UHGV virus genome: UHGV-0143060
Direction: 5' to 3' (one strand)
Source: a virus
Length of the DNA: 38,372 bases
Part shown: positions 4,824-33,698 of the stretch, one piece after another
Layout: every line of letters begins with the position of its first letter
Position numbering within the stretch: the first letter of the stretch is position 1
Made by a program: the position numbers and the translations under genes
The notes under the pieces: model-generated
What the model was told of the DNA's origin: nothing
Databases searched by the model: none
The model's input: only the letters and a program-made list of their open reading frames with translations

Positions 4824-4891
4824 GTTGGTTTTTCTCCACGGATTTACTGACAACCGAAGCCCTGACTGTTCCCGCAGTTGGGGCTTCCACT

Positions 4892-29821: not shown

Positions 29822-30472
29822 ATGAAAACTCAATTGATGGGAGAGCGCATTCGCGCTCGGAGAAAAGAACTCAAGATCAGGCAGGCCGCACTTGGAAAGA
29901 TGGTCGGCGTGTCTAATGTTGCCATATCTCAGTGGGAACGCTCTGAGACAGAGCCAAATGGAGAGAATCTTCTCGCCCTGGCTAATGCGTTGAAGTGTTC
30001 CCCTGACTATCTGATGAAAGGAGAGGAAAGTCTTTCAAACATTGCCTATCACAGTAGGCATGATCCAAGAGGGTCATACCCTCTGATTAGCTGGGTGAGC
30101 GCAGGATGCTGGATGGAAGCTGTAGAACCATATCATAAGCGTGCAATAGATAACTGGTACGATACAACCGTAGACTGTTCAGACGATTCGTTTTGGTTGG
30201 ACGTGAAGGGAGACTCAATGACGGCTCCGGCCGGTCTCAGTATCCCTGAAGGAATGATAATACTCGTCGATCCTGAAGTAGAGCCGCGTAACGGGAAACT
30301 GGTAGTTGCAAAGCTCGAAGGAGAAAACGAGGCAACTTTCAAGAAGTTAGTTATTGATGCAGGCAGGAAGTTTCTAAAACCACTTAACCCACAATATCCG
30401 ATGATCGAGATCAACGGGAACTGCAAAATCATCGGCGTAGTTGTCGATGCAAAACTAGCAAACCTTCCATAA
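29822..30472 (+). CDS. c2: C2 repressor (P22 immC type)
   Basis: 216 aa, MKTQLMGERIRARRKELKIRQAALGKMVGVSNVAISQWERSETEPNGENLLAL... matches P22 C2 including the LexA-like C-terminal domain. Confidence 0.95.
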   Translation: MKTQLMGERIRARRKELKIRQAALGKMVGVSNVAISQWERSETEPNGENLLALANALKCSPDYLMKGEESLSNIAYHSRHDPRGSYPLISWVSAGCWMEAVEPYHKRAIDNWYDTTVDCSDDSFWLDVKGDSMTAPAGLSIPEGMIILVDPEVEPRNGKLVVAKLEGENEATFKKLVIDAGRKFLKPLNPQYPMIEINGNCKIIGVVVDAKLANLP

Positions 30473-30497
30473 GGGGGCATTCGCCCCTTTTTTTTAT
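30471..30497 (+). terminator. Rho-independent terminator after c2
   Basis: GGGGGC-ATT-CGCCCC hairpin followed by TTTTTTTT. Confidence 0.6.
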
Positions 30498-30504
30498 TTC
30501 CTTT

Positions 30505-30600
30505 AAAAATCAAAGCCAAACTTAAGTTACGAAAGAAAATTTAAGTTTTCTTCAAAAATACTCTTGACCATTAATTAAAGAGATCTTAAATTTAAGCCAT
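30505..30600 (+). promoter_or_regulatory. OL operators and pL promoter
   Basis: TTGACC (30564-30569)-17 nt-TAAATT (30587-30592); operator-like AAACTTAAGTTACGAAAG, AAATTTAAGTTTTCTTCA, AAAGAGATCTTAAATTTAA. Confidence 0.65.
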
Positions 30601-30637: not shown

Positions 30638-30680
30638 GGCTCTTTAACATTGATGGGATTGTCCCGCCGAAATGCGGGAA
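30638..30680 (+). promoter_or_regulatory. nutL (boxA plus boxB hairpin)
   Basis: GGCTCTTTAACA then TCCCGCCGAAATGCGGGA hairpin upstream of N. Confidence 0.65.
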
Positions 30681-30786: not shown

Positions 30787-31092
30787 ATGACAGTAGTCAT
30801 TACATATCTGGCTGACGATAACGCCAGAAATCGCCGCAGAGCACGCAGACAGGCTCAACGTGAGCAGGCAATGCAAGAACAGCGACTGGCGCGAAAAATT
30901 GCGCTAAAGCTCTCTGGTTGCGTCAGAGCAGATAAAGCAGCATCACTTGGAAGCCTTCGCTGCAAGAAGACAGAAGAAGTCGAGCGTAAACAGAACTGTA
31001 TTTACTACCGCAAGCCACGCAGTGAAATGGGTGTGACTTGTTCAGGCCGCCAGAAGCAACGCGGAAAATCAATTCCAGCTTATTACGATTGA
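30787..31092 (+). CDS. N: N-type antiterminator
   Basis: Arginine-rich motif NARNRRRARRQAQREQA; C-terminus GVTCSGRQKQRGKSIP resembles the lambda N C-terminus. Confidence 0.8.
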   Translation: MTVVITYLADDNARNRRRARRQAQREQAMQEQRLARKIALKLSGCVRADKAASLGSLRCKKTEEVERKQNCIYYRKPRSEMGVTCSGRQKQRGKSIPAYYD

Positions 31093-31099
31093 GGTGAGC

Positions 31100-31237
31100 C
31101 ATGCTCAAGAAAGTCAAACGCCGACTTTACAAAGAAGGTAGATATTCATGCCAATTGCCAAAATGCGACACAACAAAATGGAGTGTCGATGATTGGTGTA
31201 ACTGGATAGATAGATACGGAACTTGGTGGGATAAATA
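31100..31237 (+). CDS. Small Cys/Trp-rich hypothetical protein (45 aa)
   Basis: GAGGTGA RBS then ATG; hand-translated MLKKVKRRLYKEGRYSCQLPKCDTTKWSVDDWCNWIDRYGTWWDK. Confidence 0.4.
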
Positions 31238-31362
31238 ACAGGTAACTTAAGCGGATTTATTTTCGCAGCAAACCACTTATTTGAGGTGAGATATGGAAGA
31301 AGAATTTGAAGAGTTCGAAGAGCATCCTCAGGATGTGATGGAACAATACCAGGACTATCCGT

Positions 31363-31563
31363 ATGACTACGACTATTGATAAAAATCAATGGTGTGGACA
31401 ATTCAAGCGATGCAATGGATGCAAGCTGCAATCGGAATGCATGGTTAAGCCTGAAGAAATGTTTCCTGTAATGGAAGATGGGAAATATGTCGATAAATGG
31501 GCAATACGAACGACGGCAATGATTGCCAGAGAACTTGGTAAACAGTACTACAAGGCTGCCTGA
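31363..31563 (+). CDS. ral: Ral (restriction alleviation, anti-type-I R-M)
   Basis: MTTTIDKNQWCGQFKRCNGCKLQSECMVKPEEMFPVMEDGKYVDKWAIRTTAMIARELGKQ matches lambda Ral as recalled. Confidence 0.8.
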   Translation: MTTTIDKNQWCGQFKRCNGCKLQSECMVKPEEMFPVMEDGKYVDKWAIRTTAMIARELGKQYYKAA

Positions 31564-31581
31564 TGGTGGCCTTTATTTTTG
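31553..31581 (+). terminator. Terminator-like hairpin plus T-run after ral (probably read through under N)
   Basis: AGGCTGCC-TGAT-GGTGGCCT then TTTATTTTT. Confidence 0.45.
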
Positions 31582-31621
31582 TCCGTAAATAATTTCATGA
31601 TTATTATAATCAAGGTGATAT

Positions 31622-31810
31622 ATGAACCGTAAATTTGAAATTTGGTTGGATTCCGGAGCAAACATTCACTCTTGCAAAAAGACAGTTGTAACACTCGGTG
31701 ATCTTGGCTTATCCGAGAATGAGTGGGATGAAATGGATCAGGACGAAAAAGACGAAAACATGCGTGATGTAGCATTTGAAACGCTTGATTGGGGATGGAA
31801 GGAAATTTAA
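31622..31810 (+). CDS. Small acidic hypothetical protein (62 aa)
   Basis: ORF with AAGGTGA-like upstream sequence; acidic DEMDQDEKDENM region. Confidence 0.5.
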   Translation: MNRKFEIWLDSGANIHSCKKTVVTLGDLGLSENEWDEMDQDEKDENMRDVAFETLDWGWKEI

Positions 31811-31815
31811 GTGAT

Positions 31816-31842
31816 GGCCGCATAGTCGGCCTTTATTTTTGG
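31816..31842 (+). terminator. Terminator-like hairpin plus T-run
   Basis: GGCCG-CATAGT-CGGCC then TTTATTTTTGG. Confidence 0.45.
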
Positions 31843-32049
31843 CATAAACAACAGAATAAACACTGCACTGTGTATTCATTCCAACGAGTGAATACACGGA
31901 GCAATGTCGCTCGTAACTAAACAGGAGCCGACTTGTTCTGATTATTGGAAATCTTCTTTGCCCTCCAGTGTGAGGGCCTTTTTATATGCATACCAATAAC
32001 GCTTCACTTGAGGCGTTTTCGTTATGCAATCAAACAGAAGGAGCATCCT

Positions 32050-32220
32050 ATGCAACAGTTCGCTATTGCAGGGGCGGCATCGGTTCGCCCTTTCAACCCG
32101 ATTTTATCGGTACAGCATTCACGAAAAAATATTTTAACCGGAGCAGACTTTAAACAACCAAGAATGAAAAGCTTGCTCGAAAAGCTTTGGGATATTTTGA
32201 AACAACAAGGCCGTCCATGA
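32050..32220 (+). CDS. CIII-like protein (putative FtsH inhibitor)
   Basis: AAGGAG RBS; MQQFAIAGAASV... and amphipathic SLLEKLWDILKQQ reminiscent of lambda CIII (MQYAIAGW...ESLLERITRKLRDGWKRLIDIL). Confidence 0.5.
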   Translation: MQQFAIAGAASVRPFNPILSVQHSRKNILTGADFKQPRMKSLLEKLWDILKQQGRP

Positions 32221-32375
32221 GTTTTACAGATAACTGGTCAGACGAAGAATTCATTCGTCAGATGAAAGAATTAATCGGCAACGAAGGAGATATTCATGTC
32301 ACTTGCAACCACGGTGAAGGAGAGCAAGTTACAGAGACGCATGTACACGCAGAAAGCTCTCTGGTATCGCCATAA
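32217..32375 (+). CDS. Small hypothetical protein (kil-position), 52 aa
   Basis: ATG overlaps the upstream stop; MSFTDNWSDEEFIRQMKELIGNEGDIHVTCNHGEGEQ. Confidence 0.4.
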   Translation: MSFTDNWSDEEFIRQMKELIGNEGDIHVTCNHGEGEQVTETHVHAESSLVSP

Positions 32376-32474
32376 TGGCGACCGCGAAGGAATGCGGGTA
32401 TGCCTTAATTTGTCCCGAGTCGAAGTATTAAATCAGCGTTATTTCCTTGGGCCATGTCCATTCTGAGGTGAATT

Positions 32475-33182
32475 ATGGATTTGAACAAATTCGATGAGCC
32501 ATTCAGCCCTGAAGATATCGAATGGCGAATACAGCAAAGCGGTAAAACACGCGATGGAAAGGTGTGGGCTATGGTGCTGGCTTATGTCACGAACAGGGCA
32601 ATCATGAAACGCCTGGACGATGTTTGCGGCAAAGCAGGATGGCGCAATGAATACCGCGATATTCCCAACAACGGAGGCGTTGAATGCGGCATATCAATCA
32701 AGATTGATTCCGAATGGGTAACCAAATGGGATGCTGCTGAAAACACGCAGGTAGAAGCCGTCAAAGGTGGTCGCTCAGGTGCAATGAAGCGTGCTGCCGT
32801 TCAGTGGGGAATCGGTCGGTATCTGTATAACCTTGAGGAAGGTTTCGCACAAACATCTCTCGATAAAAAGCAGGGATGGCACAGGGCAAAACTCAAGGAT
32901 GGAACAGGATTTTACTGGCTCCCTCCATCGCTGCCGGGATGGGCAATACCAGCATCAGATAACAAACCATCACCAGAAAATACCAACCAGAAATCTCCAT
33001 CGGTTGACTGCGAACAAATCCTGAAAGACTTCAGCGATTATGCGTCAACAGAAACTGACAAGAAAAAACTCATCGAGCGTTATCAGCATGACTGGCAATT
33101 AATGGCTGGCAATGAGGATGCGCAGGCTAAATGCGTTCAGGTAATGAACATCAGAGTTAACGAACTAAAACAGGCGGCATAA
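32475..33182 (+). CDS. Single-strand annealing recombinase (Rad52/Sak-like or Erf-like)
   Basis: AMKRAAVQWGIGRYLYNL motif typical of Rad52-like annealing proteins; sits immediately upstream of ssb. Confidence 0.6.
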   Translation: MDLNKFDEPFSPEDIEWRIQQSGKTRDGKVWAMVLAYVTNRAIMKRLDDVCGKAGWRNEYRDIPNNGGVECGISIKIDSEWVTKWDAAENTQVEAVKGGRSGAMKRAAVQWGIGRYLYNLEEGFAQTSLDKKQGWHRAKLKDGTGFYWLPPSLPGWAIPASDNKPSPENTNQKSPSVDCEQILKDFSDYASTETDKKKLIERYQHDWQLMAGNEDAQAKCVQVMNIRVNELKQAA

Positions 33183-33698
33183 ATGGCAAGCAGAGGCGTA
33201 AATAAGGTGATCATTATTGGTCGCCTTGGGCATGATCCAGAAATCAGATATTCACCATCAGGAACGGCATTTGCAAACCTTACAGTTGCTACGTCAGAAC
33301 AATGGCGTGATAAGCAAACTGGAGAGCAAAAGGAGCAGACGGAGTGGCACCGTGTGGTAATGAGCGGGAAACTGGCAGAAATTGCCAGCGAATATCTGCG
33401 AAAAGGCTCTGAGGTTTATCTTGAAGGCAAATTGCGGACAAGAAAATGGCAGGATCAAAGCGGACAGGATCGGTTCACTACCGAAGTCATAGTGGGCGTT
33501 GGTGGAACCATGCAAATGCTTGGTGGCAAGCAAGGAGGCAATGAACAGTCTTCACCTCAGCGAAATGACGGTCAGCAACAAAGACAACAACATCAGCAGC
33601 AAGGGAATCACAGCGAACCACCTATGGATTTTGACGACGATATCCCCTTTGCACCAGTAACTCTCCCTTTCCCTCGTCACGCTATTCACGCAATTTAA
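33183..33698 (+). CDS. ssb: Single-stranded DNA-binding protein
   Basis: OB-fold N-terminus [44 protein letters not shown], Gly/Gln-rich linker, acidic DDDIPF tail. Confidence 0.9.

What the first reader, a model, noticed from the sequence alone, without database searches (positions are those of the whole stretch)
31100..32400. Cluster of very small early-left ORFs with repeated terminator-like hairpins
Between N and the recombination genes lie Ral, a CIII-like protein and at least four other 28-62-aa ORFs (Cys/Trp-rich 45-mer, acidic 28-mer MEEEFEEFEEHPQDVMEQYQDYPYDYDY, acidic 62-mer, 52-mer), several with good RBS. Two consecutive genes are each followed by a hairpin plus the shared GGCCTTTATTTTTG tail, implying expression gated by N readthrough. 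This region in lambdoid phages is a known hotspot for anti-restriction and host-takeover peptides, and the unassigned ORFs are candidates.
Basis: partly seen in the sequence, partly recalled or inferred. Interest (0 to 1): 0.4.

Follow-up and report, generated by a model that had tools for sequence, protein, structure and literature searches.

The report
Lambdoid early-left gene cassettes with terminators
This is the ordinary accessory stretch of a lambda/P22-type phage's early-left operon: small conserved genes, each ending in a terminator-like hairpin, plus a known small RNA; the repeated hairpin tail is a shared linker that was duplicated when one extra gene was recombined in.

Summary
All the small ORFs exist on the + strand downstream of an N homologue. 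GGCCTTTATTTTTG occurs exactly twice (31568, 31828; 0.03 expected), each time after a hairpin that ends a gene (ral; a 62-aa ORF).

None of it is new:
- The 28-mer is identical to lambda orf28, and Ral is 97% lambda Ral.
- The 45-mer is Sf6 gp36 (DUF5484) and the 62-mer is DUF7167.
- The rest fall in PHROG families.
- Where sequences vary, the variation is coding-like.

The shared tail is a conserved linker, not two independent terminators. Relative to lambda, the 62-aa gene with its leader and hairpin is an insertion behind ral. The exact 26-nt hairpin plus tail follows at least five clearly unrelated ORF families (seven clusters) in at least 120 viral contigs. Sf6 and other phages carry different genes in the same slot.

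It is identical to lambda over 88 nt.

N-dependent readthrough is the textbook expectation but is untested here. No function was found for the unassigned ORFs. Verdict: an ordinary, already-known kind of region in a new mosaic combination. Interest is low.

The parts
30564..30592 (+). PL-like sigma-70 promoter (TTGACC-17-TAAATT), flanked by an operator-like inverted repeat at 30537-30593.
   Evidence: Consensus scan and inverted repeat I2. It lies between the cI-like repressor (29822-30472) and N. Function is inferred only.
30639..30679 (+). Candidate nutL: a boxA-like GCTCTTTAACA (30639-30649) and a boxB-like hairpin UCCCGC-CGAAAU-GCGGGA (30662-30679).
   Evidence: Read directly from the sequence and the fold. 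It aligns with the position of the boxA annotated in mEpX1. Inferred, not tested.
30787..31092 (+). N-type antiterminator (101 aa) with an arginine-rich motif near its N terminus.
   Evidence: phrog_271, E = 1.4e-35. Pfam N_peptide scores 22 bits, below the 27.9 cut-off.
31101..31238 (+). 45-aa Cys/Trp-rich ORF; the homologue of Sf6 gene 36, family DUF5484.
   Evidence: PF17583, 46.7 bits against a cut-off of 27. phrog_1871, E = 1.4e-22. Annotated in Sf6 and mEpX1. pN/pS 0.21, and 12 of 13 copies intact.
31293..31379 (+). orf28, the acidic 28-mer. It is identical to lambda orf28 and always sits in front of ral, overlapping it.
   Evidence: 28/28 identical to lambda. phrog_16060. 82/82 intact, variable sites by codon position 2/1/7, pN/pS 0.04. 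Paired with ral at a fixed overlap in 102 loci.
31363..31563 (+). ral, the restriction-alleviation gene (66 aa).
   Evidence: PF11058, E = 5e-47. 64/66 identical to lambda Ral.
31552..31581 (+). Hairpin AAGGCTGCC-TGAT-GGTGGCCTT followed by TATTTTTG. This is the first copy of the linker GGCCTTTATTTTTG and contains the ral stop codon.
   Evidence: -13.9 kcal/mol. About 76 loci carry this strong allele and about 32 carry the weak lambda allele.
31582..31621 (+). Cassette leader TCCGTAAATAATTTCATGATTATTATAATCAAGGTGATAT, carrying the SD for the 62-mer. Sf6 gene-34-type cassettes use the same leader.
   Evidence: The promoter-like match 31579-31607 is weak (9/12), and the number of promoter-like sites in the region is at or below chance.
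31622..31810 (+). 62-aa acidic ORF of family DUF7167. Relative to lambda it is an inserted single-gene cassette.
   Evidence: PF23768, 32.3 bits against a cut-off of 24.4. phrog_8831, E = 2e-32. 82 cluster representatives. Alignment motif WLDSGANxHS...EEW...AFE..DWG. Insertion relative to lambda.
31816..31841 (+). Hairpin GGCCG-CATAGT-CGGCC followed by TTTATTTTTG. This is the second copy of the linker and the 3' end of the cassette.
   Evidence: It follows seven ORF clusters, five of them clearly unrelated gene families, at -1 to +5 nt.
31868..31899 (+). 14-bp hairpin just upstream of, and overlapping, the 5' end of the PreS homologue. It may be a processing determinant.
   Evidence: -18.8 kcal/mol, z = -5.1. 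It is conserved in lambda. Two loci carry changes that make the stem perfect.
31890..31985 (+). Homologue of the lambda Hfq-dependent sRNA PreS (LPR1), ending at the tL2a terminator (stem 31960-31977, then CUUUUUAU).
   Evidence: 88/88 nt identical to lambda through the terminator stem. The lambda sRNA, its tL2a 3' end and its function are described in bioRxiv 10.1101/2024.10.31.621285. Sf6 annotates the hairpin as tL2A and the block as 'bsq4'.
31998..32025 (+). Terminator-like hairpin AACGCTTC-ACTT-GAGGCGTT followed by TTCGTTAT, directly upstream of cIII. It is homologous to the lambda sequence just upstream of cIII, probably tL2b.
   Evidence: -9.9 kcal/mol. 78% identity to lambda. The tL2b name comes from my own recollection and was not verified.
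32050..32220 (+). CIII-like 56-aa ORF.
   Evidence: phrog_550, E = 1e-22. 28% identical to lambda CIII, with the N- and C-terminal motifs shared. pN/pS 0.01. No Pfam hit.
32217..32375 (+). 52-aa ORF (HK97 gp42.1 / Sf6 gene 30 type). Its start overlaps the cIII stop (ATGA).
   Evidence: phrog_2123, E = 5.5e-41. Open in all 66 loci. The C-terminal tail differs between two alleles. The N-terminal part gives pN/pS 0.42.
32296..32466 (+). 56-aa ORF (HK97 gp42 / Sf6 gene 29 type) with a strong SD. It overlaps the 52-mer and lies just upstream of the recombinase gene.
   Evidence: phrog_1723, E = 9.4e-36. Open in 66/66 loci, pN/pS about 0.2. Homologues in 69 phage records, down to 48% identity.
32475..33182 (+). 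Rad52/Sak-type single-strand annealing recombinase (context, and the end of the accessory segment).
   Evidence: PF04098, E = 5e-26. phrog_1097, E = 4.6e-130.

Best explanation
The region is the N-dependent accessory segment of the early-left (PL) operon of a P22-like lambdoid phage. It is built from small, independently exchangeable modules.

**Order on the + strand**
1. PL-like promoter, then a nut-like site, then N.
2. The DUF5484 45-mer.
3. lambda orf28 plus ral, a fixed overlapping pair.
4. Hairpin and linker.
5. The DUF7167 62-mer.
6. Hairpin and linker.
7. The PreS/LPR1 sRNA, ending at tL2a.
8. A tL2b-like hairpin.
9. CIII-like ORF.
10. The 52-mer and 56-mer, a fixed overlapping pair.
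11. A Rad52-type recombinase.

**What the repeated tail is (shown by comparison)**
- GGCCTTTATTTTTG is the core of a conserved intergenic linker, which lambdoid genome papers call a boundary sequence. The linker closes single-gene cassettes.
- In lambda, the ral end runs straight into the PreS block.
- Here, a cassette has been recombined in at that linker, so the linker is present twice. The cassette consists of a leader with an SD, the DUF7167 ORF, and the hairpin GGCCGCATAGTCGGCC with its tail.

**How it most likely works (inferred)**
- The GC hairpins followed by U-rich tails act as intrinsic terminators. They limit PL transcription until N-modified RNA polymerase reads through, as at the lambda tL2 cluster.
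- Genes distal to ral (the 62-mer, PreS precursor transcripts, cIII, the recombination genes) would therefore be delayed-early and N-dependent.
- Because these linkers are the only sequences shared between otherwise unrelated cassettes, they also serve as the homology patches at which cassettes are swapped.
For: **Shown by computation**
- Every ORF hits a catalogued family, and related phages annotate the same genes in the same order.
- Window 31268-31592 matches lambda 34381-34059, and window 31822-31987 matches lambda 34087-33923. The lambda ral-stop/tail segment is therefore matched twice, and 31593-31821 is an insertion.
- Of 84 ral loci, 52 have the lambda-like empty junction. The others carry different genes between the same flanks: the 62-aa DUF7167 ORF, an 80-aa ORF, 121-149-aa membrane proteins of the Sf6 gene 34 type, or a 207-aa ORF.
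- The exact 26-nt hairpin plus tail occurs in at least 120 viral contigs. It lies -1 to +5 nt after seven ORF clusters. Five of these are clearly unrelated gene families, one is a doubtful 38-aa ORF, and one is DUF7167 itself.
- Elsewhere DUF7167 sits directly after N, with the orf28-type leader, or before orf28-ral. Module order therefore varies, while orf28-ral and the 52/56-mer stay paired.
- In an Ewingella prophage the DUF7167 homologue (74% identity) is again followed by a hairpin and U tract. The stem sequence there is different, so the structure is kept where the sequence is not.
- The mosaic junction after tL2a also lies directly at the end of the terminator stem, with three tail types leading to three different downstream genes.
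- The 14-mer is far above chance. Hairpin stabilities are -10 to -14 kcal/mol, with z of -2.4 to -3.3.

**From the literature**
- tL2a is a termination site of the lambda early-left operon and the 3' end of PreS.
- ral is conditionally essential in hosts with a type I restriction system (PMC10695390).
Against: - No transcription data exist for this phage. Terminator activity, its strength and N-dependent readthrough are all inferred from consensus features and from lambda.
- Lambda's own ral 3' end does not fold into a stable hairpin (-6 kcal/mol, z = 0.36). The tail can therefore exist without a terminator, and about 32 of about 108 loci carry that weak allele.
- The nut site is identified by eye only.
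- The linker-mediated exchange model rests on where breakpoints lie. Selection for intact genes would also enrich surviving breakpoints in intergenic DNA, whatever the recombination mechanism.
- The loci surveyed are close relatives (95-100% identical in shared parts), and two of the collection scans were capped. The counts are not an unbiased census.
Confidence: 0.75

Rival explanations
1. The two hairpins are independent intrinsic terminators, and their identical tails reflect convergence on a good U-tract rather than common descent or cassette insertion.
For: U-rich tails are constrained in composition. A third hairpin (tL2a) has a similar tail, GGCCTTTTTATATG, at 79% identity (family D1).
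Against: - 14/14 identity occurring twice is far above chance (0.03 expected).
- Similarity extends beyond the tail (G-x-C..TAAA-y-AA), and in lambda into the loop (ATAGT).
- The same exact 26-mer follows unrelated genes in at least 120 contigs.
- Lambda has the tail without a stable hairpin.
Confidence: 0.04
2. The 62-aa gene is a classical moron: an autonomous unit with its own promoter and terminator, expressed from the prophage independently of PL and N.
For: - A promoter-like match TTGTCC-17-TATTAT lies at 31579-31607, just upstream of the ORF.
- The gene is bracketed by terminator-like hairpins.
- Relative to lambda it is an insertion.
Against: - The match is only 9/12, and promoter-like hits in the region number 4, against 6.3 +/- 2.6 in shuffles.
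- A start about 7 nt after the -10 would fall inside the SD (AGGTGA, 31613-31618), leaving no leader.
- The -10 is not kept in the same leader in Sf6-type cassettes, where TATTAC lacks the invariant final T.
- In other phages DUF7167 uses a different leader directly behind N.
Confidence: 0.08
3. The hairpins are mainly RNA processing or stability elements: 3' protective stem-loops or RNase targets that set the relative amounts of individual cistrons. They would not be transcription terminators gated by N.
For: - The operon is known to yield a processed sRNA (the 88-nt and 68-nt forms of PreS).
- The long hairpin 31868-31899 sits at the PreS 5' end.
- The 149-nt intergenic block is very structured (z = -5.9).
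- The lambda allele of the ral 3' end lacks the hairpin yet lambda functions normally.
Against: - Both hairpins have the canonical GC stem followed immediately by 8 T in 9 nt.
- Neighbouring tL2a is an accepted terminator.
- The two roles are not exclusive.
Confidence: 0.15
4. Some or all of the unassigned small ORFs are not genes, only chance open frames in AT-rich intergenic DNA.
For: - They are very short.
- The overall pN/pS of the 52-mer is about 1.
- DUF7167 is frameshifted in 2 of 7 viral contigs and in several database proteins.
- An unannotated 31-aa ORF at 31904-31999 does look non-coding (pN/pS 0.71) and lies inside PreS.
Against: - Variation is biased to third codon positions, and pN/pS is low for the 28-, 45- and 56-mers and for the N-terminal part of the 52-mer.
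- The 28-mer is open in 82/82 loci, and the 52- and 56-mers are both open in 66/66.
- Divergent protein homologues exist: 30-55% identity for DUF7167 and 48% for the 56-mer.
- DUF5484 and DUF7167 score above the Pfam curated cut-offs.
- Strong SDs are present.
Confidence: 0.03

Closest known systems
Phage lambda PL operon, N-to-cIII segment (orf28, ral, PreS/tL2a, ea10, tL2b, cIII) under N antitermination
   Same: - The gene order and transcription direction are the same.
- orf28 is 100% and Ral 97% identical.
- The ral-ea10 intergenic block, including PreS and tL2a, is 97-100% identical.
- The hairpin upstream of cIII is homologous.
- An N homologue and a nut-like site lie upstream.
   Different: - There is no sieB, ea10 or kil.
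- N is of a different type and is followed directly by a DUF5484 gene.
- An extra DUF7167 cassette lies behind ral.
- The ral 3' end forms a strong hairpin here but not in lambda.
- CIII is only 28% identical.
- The recombinase is Rad52/Sak-type, not Exo/Bet.
Shigella phage Sf6 early-left region (genes 37-34, boundary sequence 'bsq4', tL2A), as annotated in NC_005344
   Same: - Window 31006-31624 and 31816-31983 are 97-98% identical to Sf6. This covers the N 3' end, gp36, ral and its hairpin/tail, the cassette leader, the cassette-end hairpin/tail, and the bsq4/tL2A block.
- The slot architecture is the same.
   Different: - Sf6 carries gene 34 (a 140-aa membrane protein) in the slot where this window has the 62-aa DUF7167 gene.
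- After tL2A, Sf6 continues into gene 33, and has kil.
Morons and mosaic linker/boundary sequences of lambdoid phages (HK97/HK022 and HK620/Sf6 genome papers; cited from my own knowledge)
   Same: - A single accessory gene is inserted between two genes of an ancestral arrangement and ends in a terminator.
- Short conserved sequences lie at module joints.
   Different: - There is no convincing promoter of its own, so it is not a full moron.
- The joints coincide with functional RNA elements (terminator hairpins, an sRNA gene) rather than with neutral linkers.
PreS (LPR1), the Hfq-dependent sRNA of lambda (bioRxiv 10.1101/2024.10.31.621285)
   Same: - 88/88 nt are identical through the terminator stem.
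- It occupies the same position downstream of ral, and its 3' end is tL2a.
   Different: - The U-tail is CUUUUUAU here and GAUUUUUUAU in lambda.
- It is preceded here by two terminator-like hairpins rather than one weak one.
- Expression and Hfq binding are untested for this phage.
Integron gene-cassette arrays (an analogy only)
   Same: Promoterless single-gene cassettes are stacked in one orientation behind a common promoter. Each ends in a conserved, imperfectly palindromic element, and order and content vary between relatives.
   Different: - No integrase-type site-specific recombinase is associated with the array.
- The repeated elements look like terminators, not attC sites.
- Exchange is presumably by homologous or homeologous recombination.

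Membership tests
Ral antirestriction protein (PF11058) | Sequence match to the Ral family over its full length | tested here: met
   157.7 bits against a cut-off of 25, covering residues 1-66 of 66. 64/66 identical to lambda Ral.
Ral antirestriction protein (PF11058) | Alleviates type I restriction and enhances modification in vivo | not testable with these tools
   Known for lambda ral (PMC10695390). Not measured for this phage.
Lambda orf28 | A 28-aa acidic ORF whose 3' end overlaps the ral start | tested here: met
   28/28 identical to lambda. The overlap is the same in 102 loci.
CIII (FtsH-inhibiting lysogeny factor) | Sequence membership in the CIII family | tested here: inconclusive
   phrog_550, E = 1e-22 over the full length. 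No Pfam or NCBIfam hit at E of 0.01 or better. Only 28% identity to lambda CIII (E = 0.025), with the MQ-x-AIAG and L-x-IL-x-Q-x-G-x-P ends shared.
CIII (FtsH-inhibiting lysogeny factor) | Position between the tL2 region and kil or the recombination genes, preceded by the structured leader | tested here: met
   The gene order matches, and the upstream hairpin is homologous to lambda.
DUF5484 (Sf6 gp36-like) | Pfam match above the curated cut-off | tested here: met
   46.7 bits against 27. phrog_1871.
DUF7167 | Pfam match above the curated cut-off, as a stand-alone protein of about 60 aa | tested here: met
   32.3 bits against 24.4. 82 cluster representatives, nearly all 55-70 aa.
Rho-independent (intrinsic) terminator | A GC-rich stem-loop followed immediately by a U tract | tested here: met
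   31552-31581, 31816-31841, 31960-31985 and 31998-32025 all pass the consensus scan. They fold at -9.9 to -13.9 kcal/mol.
Rho-independent (intrinsic) terminator | Causes transcript release | not testable with these tools
   Only tL2a has experimental support, and that is in lambda.
Lambda-type N antitermination module | An N protein with an arginine-rich motif, encoded directly downstream of the early promoter | tested here: met
   phrog_271, E = 1.4e-35. The motif RNRRRARRQAQRE is visible in the translation. The Pfam N_peptide score (22 bits) is below the 27.9 cut-off.
Lambda-type N antitermination module | A nut site (boxA plus a boxB hairpin) between the promoter and N | tested here: inconclusive
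   GCTCTTTAACA at 30639-30649 and a 6-bp hairpin at 30662-30679. The loop is 6 nt, not the lambda pentaloop. No binding data exist.
PreS / LPR1 sRNA | Sequence identity to the lambda sRNA, including the seed and the tL2a terminator stem | tested here: met
   88/88 nt identical, window 31890-31977.
PreS / LPR1 sRNA | Accumulates as an RNA of about 88 and 68 nt, bound by Hfq, that regulates dnaN and alaS | not testable with these tools
   Shown for lambda only. There is no Rfam model.
Moron (autonomous promoter-gene-terminator insert) | Has its own promoter | tested here: not met
   The only match is 9/12 and is placed so that a transcript would lack the SD. It is not conserved in the same leader elsewhere.
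Lambdoid mosaic boundary sequence (Sf6 'bsq4') | A short non-coding block conserved between phages whose flanking genes differ | tested here: met
   Window 31865-31977 corresponds to Sf6 bsq4. The 70-nt body is present in 180 of 213 loci with 0-1 mismatch in 176, while the flanks differ.

The most novel reading that the evidence does not exclude
The most novel reading not excluded is that the hairpin-plus-GGCCTTTATTTTTG linkers are not merely terminators that happen to be shared. They would be selected 'cassette ends', which let the phage's own Rad52-type annealing recombinase swap promoterless single-gene cassettes in and out of the N-proximal part of the PL operon. That would be an integron-like but recombinase-nonspecific cassette array. 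Its cargo (DUF7167, DUF5484, orf28, Sf6 gene 34-type membrane proteins and others) would be a reservoir of anti-defence or host-takeover factors, deployed first after infection.
Probability: 0.12. Interest if true: 0.55.

Novelty: already known. Interest (0 to 1): 0.18.

Why it matters
The finding has little standalone importance. It is a typical lambdoid early-left accessory region, and all its parts have near-identical counterparts in published phages.

Three points are useful for annotation:
- The acidic 28-mer is lambda orf28. It always travels with ral, overlapping its start, which suggests translational or functional coupling.
- The non-coding gap before cIII is the PreS sRNA gene. It has no Rfam model, so automatic pipelines miss it. 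It coincides with the 'boundary sequence' bsq4 annotated in Sf6.
- The slot behind ral is a recurrent insertion point framed by a conserved leader and terminator. This gives a cheap way to harvest candidate early accessory genes from prophages for anti-defence screens.

Tried and rejected
- **Rfam.** Searches at the gathering and E-value thresholds gave nothing in the region; the only window hit is sar RNA at 4824-4891.
- **Other protein libraries.** NCBIfam and PADLOC scans of all the small ORFs gave no hits.
- **Moron hypothesis.** An autonomous promoter for the 62-mer was examined and rejected.
- **31-aa ORF at 31904-31999.** It has a GGAG upstream, but its variation is non-coding-like (pN/pS 0.71) and it lies inside PreS. 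Rejected as a gene.
- **Minus-strand ORFs of 62-105 aa across the region.** No PHROG hits.
- **Covariation test of the 149-nt structured block.** 0 compensatory pairs; the sequences are too similar to be informative.
- **A first pass that scored the 52-mer as frequently broken (18/33 intact).** This was an artefact of requiring a fixed stop position. The ORF is open in all 66 loci, with two C-terminal alleles.
- **Exact 40-nt junction (gene-34-type leader joined to the DUF7167 start).** Not found in 185,579 representative genomes. No phage record covers 80% or more of the region, and only 2 of 5,426 E. coli genomes do.
- **Literature.** Searches for tL2a, DUF7167 and DUF5484 found nothing relevant. 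The lambda ribosome-profiling paper PMC3718152 is not held.
Full report
**Context**

The window is a P22-like lambdoid phage genome.
- It carries a sar RNA at 4824-4891.
- Its closest whole-genome relatives are vB_EcoP-720R6, CUS-3 and Kapi1, which cover 54-62% of it at about 96-97% identity.
- Around the finding, everything relevant is on the + strand. A LexA/CI-type repressor (29822-30472) has its own terminator (30471-30490). A PL-like promoter follows (30564-30592), then a nut-like boxA/boxB candidate (30639-30679), then an N homologue (30787-31092; phrog_271, E = 1.4e-35).
Those are a Rad52-type recombinase at 32475-33182 and SSB at 33183-33698.

**Observation check**

All the described ORFs are present:
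- 45-mer, 31101-31238.
- 28-mer, 31293-31379.
- Ral, 31363-31563.
- 62-mer, 31622-31810.
- CIII-like, 32050-32220.
- 52-mer, 32217-32375.

GGCCTTTATTTTTG occurs exactly twice in the 38 kb (31568 and 31828), against 0.03 expected. Each copy directly follows a GC-rich hairpin that closes a gene, at -13.9 and -11.9 kcal/mol. Two further terminator-like hairpins follow (31960-31977 and 31998-32017), along with a long hairpin at 31868-31899.

**What the ORFs are**

Every ORF hits an existing family:

| ORF | Family match | Further evidence |
|---|---|---|
| 45-mer | DUF5484, phrog_1871 | Sf6 gene 36 |
| 28-mer | phrog_16060 | 28/28 identical to lambda orf28 |
| Ral | PF11058 | 64/66 identical to lambda Ral |
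| 62-mer | DUF7167, phrog_8831 | see below |
| CIII-like | phrog_550 | 28% identical to lambda CIII |
| 52-mer | phrog_2123 | HK97 gp42.1 / Sf6 gene 30 type |
| 56-mer | phrog_1723 | HK97 gp42 / Sf6 gene 29 type |

- orf28 is intact in 82/82 loci. Its variable sites by codon position are 2/1/7, and pN/pS is 0.04.
- pN/pS is 0.21 for the 45-mer, 0.26 for ral and 0.01 for cIII.
- pN/pS for the 56-mer is 0.10 over its whole length. It is 0.18 to 0.22 when the overlapping and non-overlapping parts are scored separately.
- The 52-mer and 56-mer are both open in all 66 loci.
- In their overlap the 56-mer frame is the constrained one. The non-overlapping N-terminal part of the 52-mer still gives 0.42, against 3.0 and 1.3 in the other frames.
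- The 62-mer has few close relatives, and 2 of 7 viral copies are frameshifted. An exhaustive HMMER search nevertheless found 82 cluster representatives, nearly all stand-alone proteins of 55-70 aa. They share the motif WLDSGANxHS...EEW...AFE..DWG.
- In Ewingella and Enterobacter prophages the DUF7167 gene occupies the same place, just downstream of N (for Ewingella, for Enterobacter).

The ORFs are therefore real genes. They are also known, catalogued genes of unknown function. Nothing links them to a specific activity:
- There were no PADLOC or NCBIfam hits.

**What the repeated tail is**

Comparison with lambda settles this.
- Window 31268-31592 aligns to lambda 34381-34059.
- Window 31822-31987 aligns to lambda 34087-33923.
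- The lambda ral-stop/tail segment is therefore matched twice, and window 31593-31821 is an insertion.
- In lambda the sequence runs ...GCTGCCTGATAGTGGCCTTTATTTTTGGCATAAATAACAGAATAAACACTGCACTG... straight into the ral-ea10 intergenic block.
- Here the first copy continues ...TTTTTGTCCGTAAATAATTTC..AGGTGATATATG into the 62-mer. After GGCCGCATAGTCGGCCTTTATTTTTG, the lambda continuation GGCATAAACAACAGAATAAACACTGCACTG resumes.

I then surveyed 84 ral loci.
- 52 have the empty lambda-type junction.
- The others have different genes between the same flanks: an 80-aa ORF, 121-149-aa membrane proteins of the Sf6 gene 34 type, or a 207-aa ORF.
- A further 17 diverge a few bases later, after GGCATAAACAACAGA, into yet other genes.
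- The Sf6-type cassettes use the same leader and the same terminal hairpin as the window's 62-mer. Only the coding sequence differs.

- In the 73 contigs with enough upstream sequence, it lies -1 to +5 nt after seven ORF clusters. Five of these are clearly unrelated gene families.
- DUF7167 itself is found elsewhere directly behind N with the orf28-type leader. In an E. coli prophage it sits in front of orf28-ral.
- orf28-ral (102 loci) and the 52/56-mer pair always stay together.
- No fetched locus has the window's full order. No phage record covers 80% or more of the region, and only 2 of 5,426 E. coli genomes do.

The region is therefore a stack of small modules joined by short conserved linkers, in a combination that is rare. 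The 'shared tail' is one such linker present twice.

**Do the linkers function as terminators?**

They have the canonical anatomy.
- In the Ewingella prophage the DUF7167 homologue is followed by a hairpin with a different stem (AGGTCAC/GTGGCCT) and a U tract. The structure is therefore conserved where the sequence is not.
- The neighbouring hairpin 31960-31977 is the homologue of lambda tL2a. Sf6 and mEpX1 annotate it as a terminator, and the literature cites it as a termination site of the early-left operon.
- Against a simple picture, lambda's own ral 3' end does not fold (-6 kcal/mol, z = 0.36).
- Across loci there are two alleles: a strong one (-13.3 kcal/mol, about 76 loci, including this window) and the weak lambda type (about 32 loci).

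N-dependent readthrough is the expected mechanism, given N and the nut-like site upstream. It remains an inference.

I rejected an autonomous promoter for the 62-mer.
- The only match is 9/12, and promoter-like sites in the region are no more frequent than chance.
- A transcript from it would start inside the SD.
- The -10 is not kept in the same leader in other phages.

The non-coding block 31842-31990 is 95-100% identical in 160 loci. It folds far better than shuffles (z = -5.9).
- It is the lambda ral-ea10 intergenic region. A 2024 preprint shows that this region encodes the Hfq-dependent sRNA LPR1, renamed PreS.
- PreS appears as RNAs of about 88 and 68 nt. Its 3' end is tL2a, and it is expressed in the lytic cycle.
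- It activates host dnaN translation, represses alaS, and promotes phage DNA replication (bioRxiv 10.1101/2024.10.31.621285).
- Window 31890-31977 is 88/88 identical to lambda through the terminator stem. Only the U-tail differs.
- Rfam has no model for it.
- The block also coincides with the 'bsq4 boundary sequence' annotated in Sf6.
- The mosaic junction on its 3' side lies directly at the end of the terminator stem. Three tail types lead to three different downstream genes.
- A 31-aa ORF inside it (31904-31999) shows non-coding-like variation.

**Comparison with known systems, and verdict**

- Functionally and by descent, this is the lambda N-ral-tL2-cIII segment in P22-like mosaic form. 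Its closest annotated relative is Sf6 genes 37-34.
- It is not a moron, because it has no promoter of its own.
- It resembles an integron array only by analogy.
- Linker or boundary sequences at module joints are an established idea in lambdoid genomics (my own knowledge, plus the Sf6 annotation). Here the joints coincide with functional RNA elements.
- The finding is a correct observation of an ordinary, already-known kind of region. Its mechanistic reading (N-gated expression) is plausible but untested. Its 'candidate' ORFs are known families with no functional lead.

The residual novel possibility is that the terminator-linkers are selected cassette ends for a recombinase-driven accessory-gene array carrying anti-defence cargo. 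The evidence does not exclude it. I rate it at about 0.12.

Noticed in passing
window 31890-31985: Homologue of the lambda Hfq-dependent sRNA PreS/LPR1, ending at tL2a. It is 88/88 nt identical to lambda through the terminator stem, but the U-tail is shorter (CUUUUUAU against GAUUUUUUAU). Rfam 15 has no model for it, so pipelines miss it.
   Followed up: yes
window 31868-31899: A very stable 14-bp hairpin (-18.8 kcal/mol, z = -5.1) sits at the 5' edge of the PreS homologue. Two loci (L022, L036) carry two changes that turn it into a perfect 17-bp stem. It may be an RNase processing determinant that generates the sRNA 5' end.
   Followed up: partly
window 31865-31977; L001 (Sf6) 2550-2662: The 'bsq4 boundary sequence' annotated in the Sf6 genome coincides with the PreS sRNA gene. 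A block once read as a recombination linker is therefore a functional RNA gene.
   Followed up: partly
window 31977-31990 and alignment A2, columns 139-152: The mosaic breakpoint lies directly after the tL2a stem (GAGGGC). There are three tail types. CTTTTTATATGCA leads to tL2b and cIII, GATTTTTTATCTG leads to ea10, and AATTTTTTTGACG leads to Sf6 gene 33.
   Followed up: partly
window 31552-31573; lambda 34105-34075: The ral 3' hairpin has two alleles. One is strong (-13.3 kcal/mol, about 76 loci, including this window). The other is the weak lambda type (-4.3 kcal/mol, about 32 loci), which differs by two stem-disrupting bases. Every cassette insertion seen lies behind the strong allele.
   Followed up: partly
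window 31293-31379 / 31363-31563: orf28 always accompanies ral, with the same overlap, in 102 loci. ral has no obvious SD of its own. This suggests translational coupling or a joint function of the acidic 28-mer with Ral.
   Followed up: partly
window 32217-32466: The 52-mer and 56-mer overlap by 80 nt in different frames. In the overlap the 56-mer frame is the constrained one, and the C-terminal tail of the 52-mer switches between a 52-aa and a 56-aa form according to the 56-mer allele.
   Followed up: yes
L010, L011 (2501-2685); proteins P0009, P0016, P0017: DUF7167 copies with a 1-nt frameshift recur in databases, so the gene is sometimes decaying.
   Followed up: partly
window 32218-32220: The cIII stop overlaps the start of the 52-mer (ATGA), which leaves no room for a kil gene. 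Sf6, ECP1 and lambda all have kil at this position.
   Followed up: no
window 4824-4891: sar antisense RNA (RF00262, 91.5 bits), the P22-type regulator of ant. It confirms a P22-like immI region in this phage.
   Followed up: no
window 30471-30490 and 30537-30593: A strong terminator lies immediately after the repressor gene, overlapping its stop. An operator-like 19-nt inverted repeat brackets the PL-like promoter.
   Followed up: no
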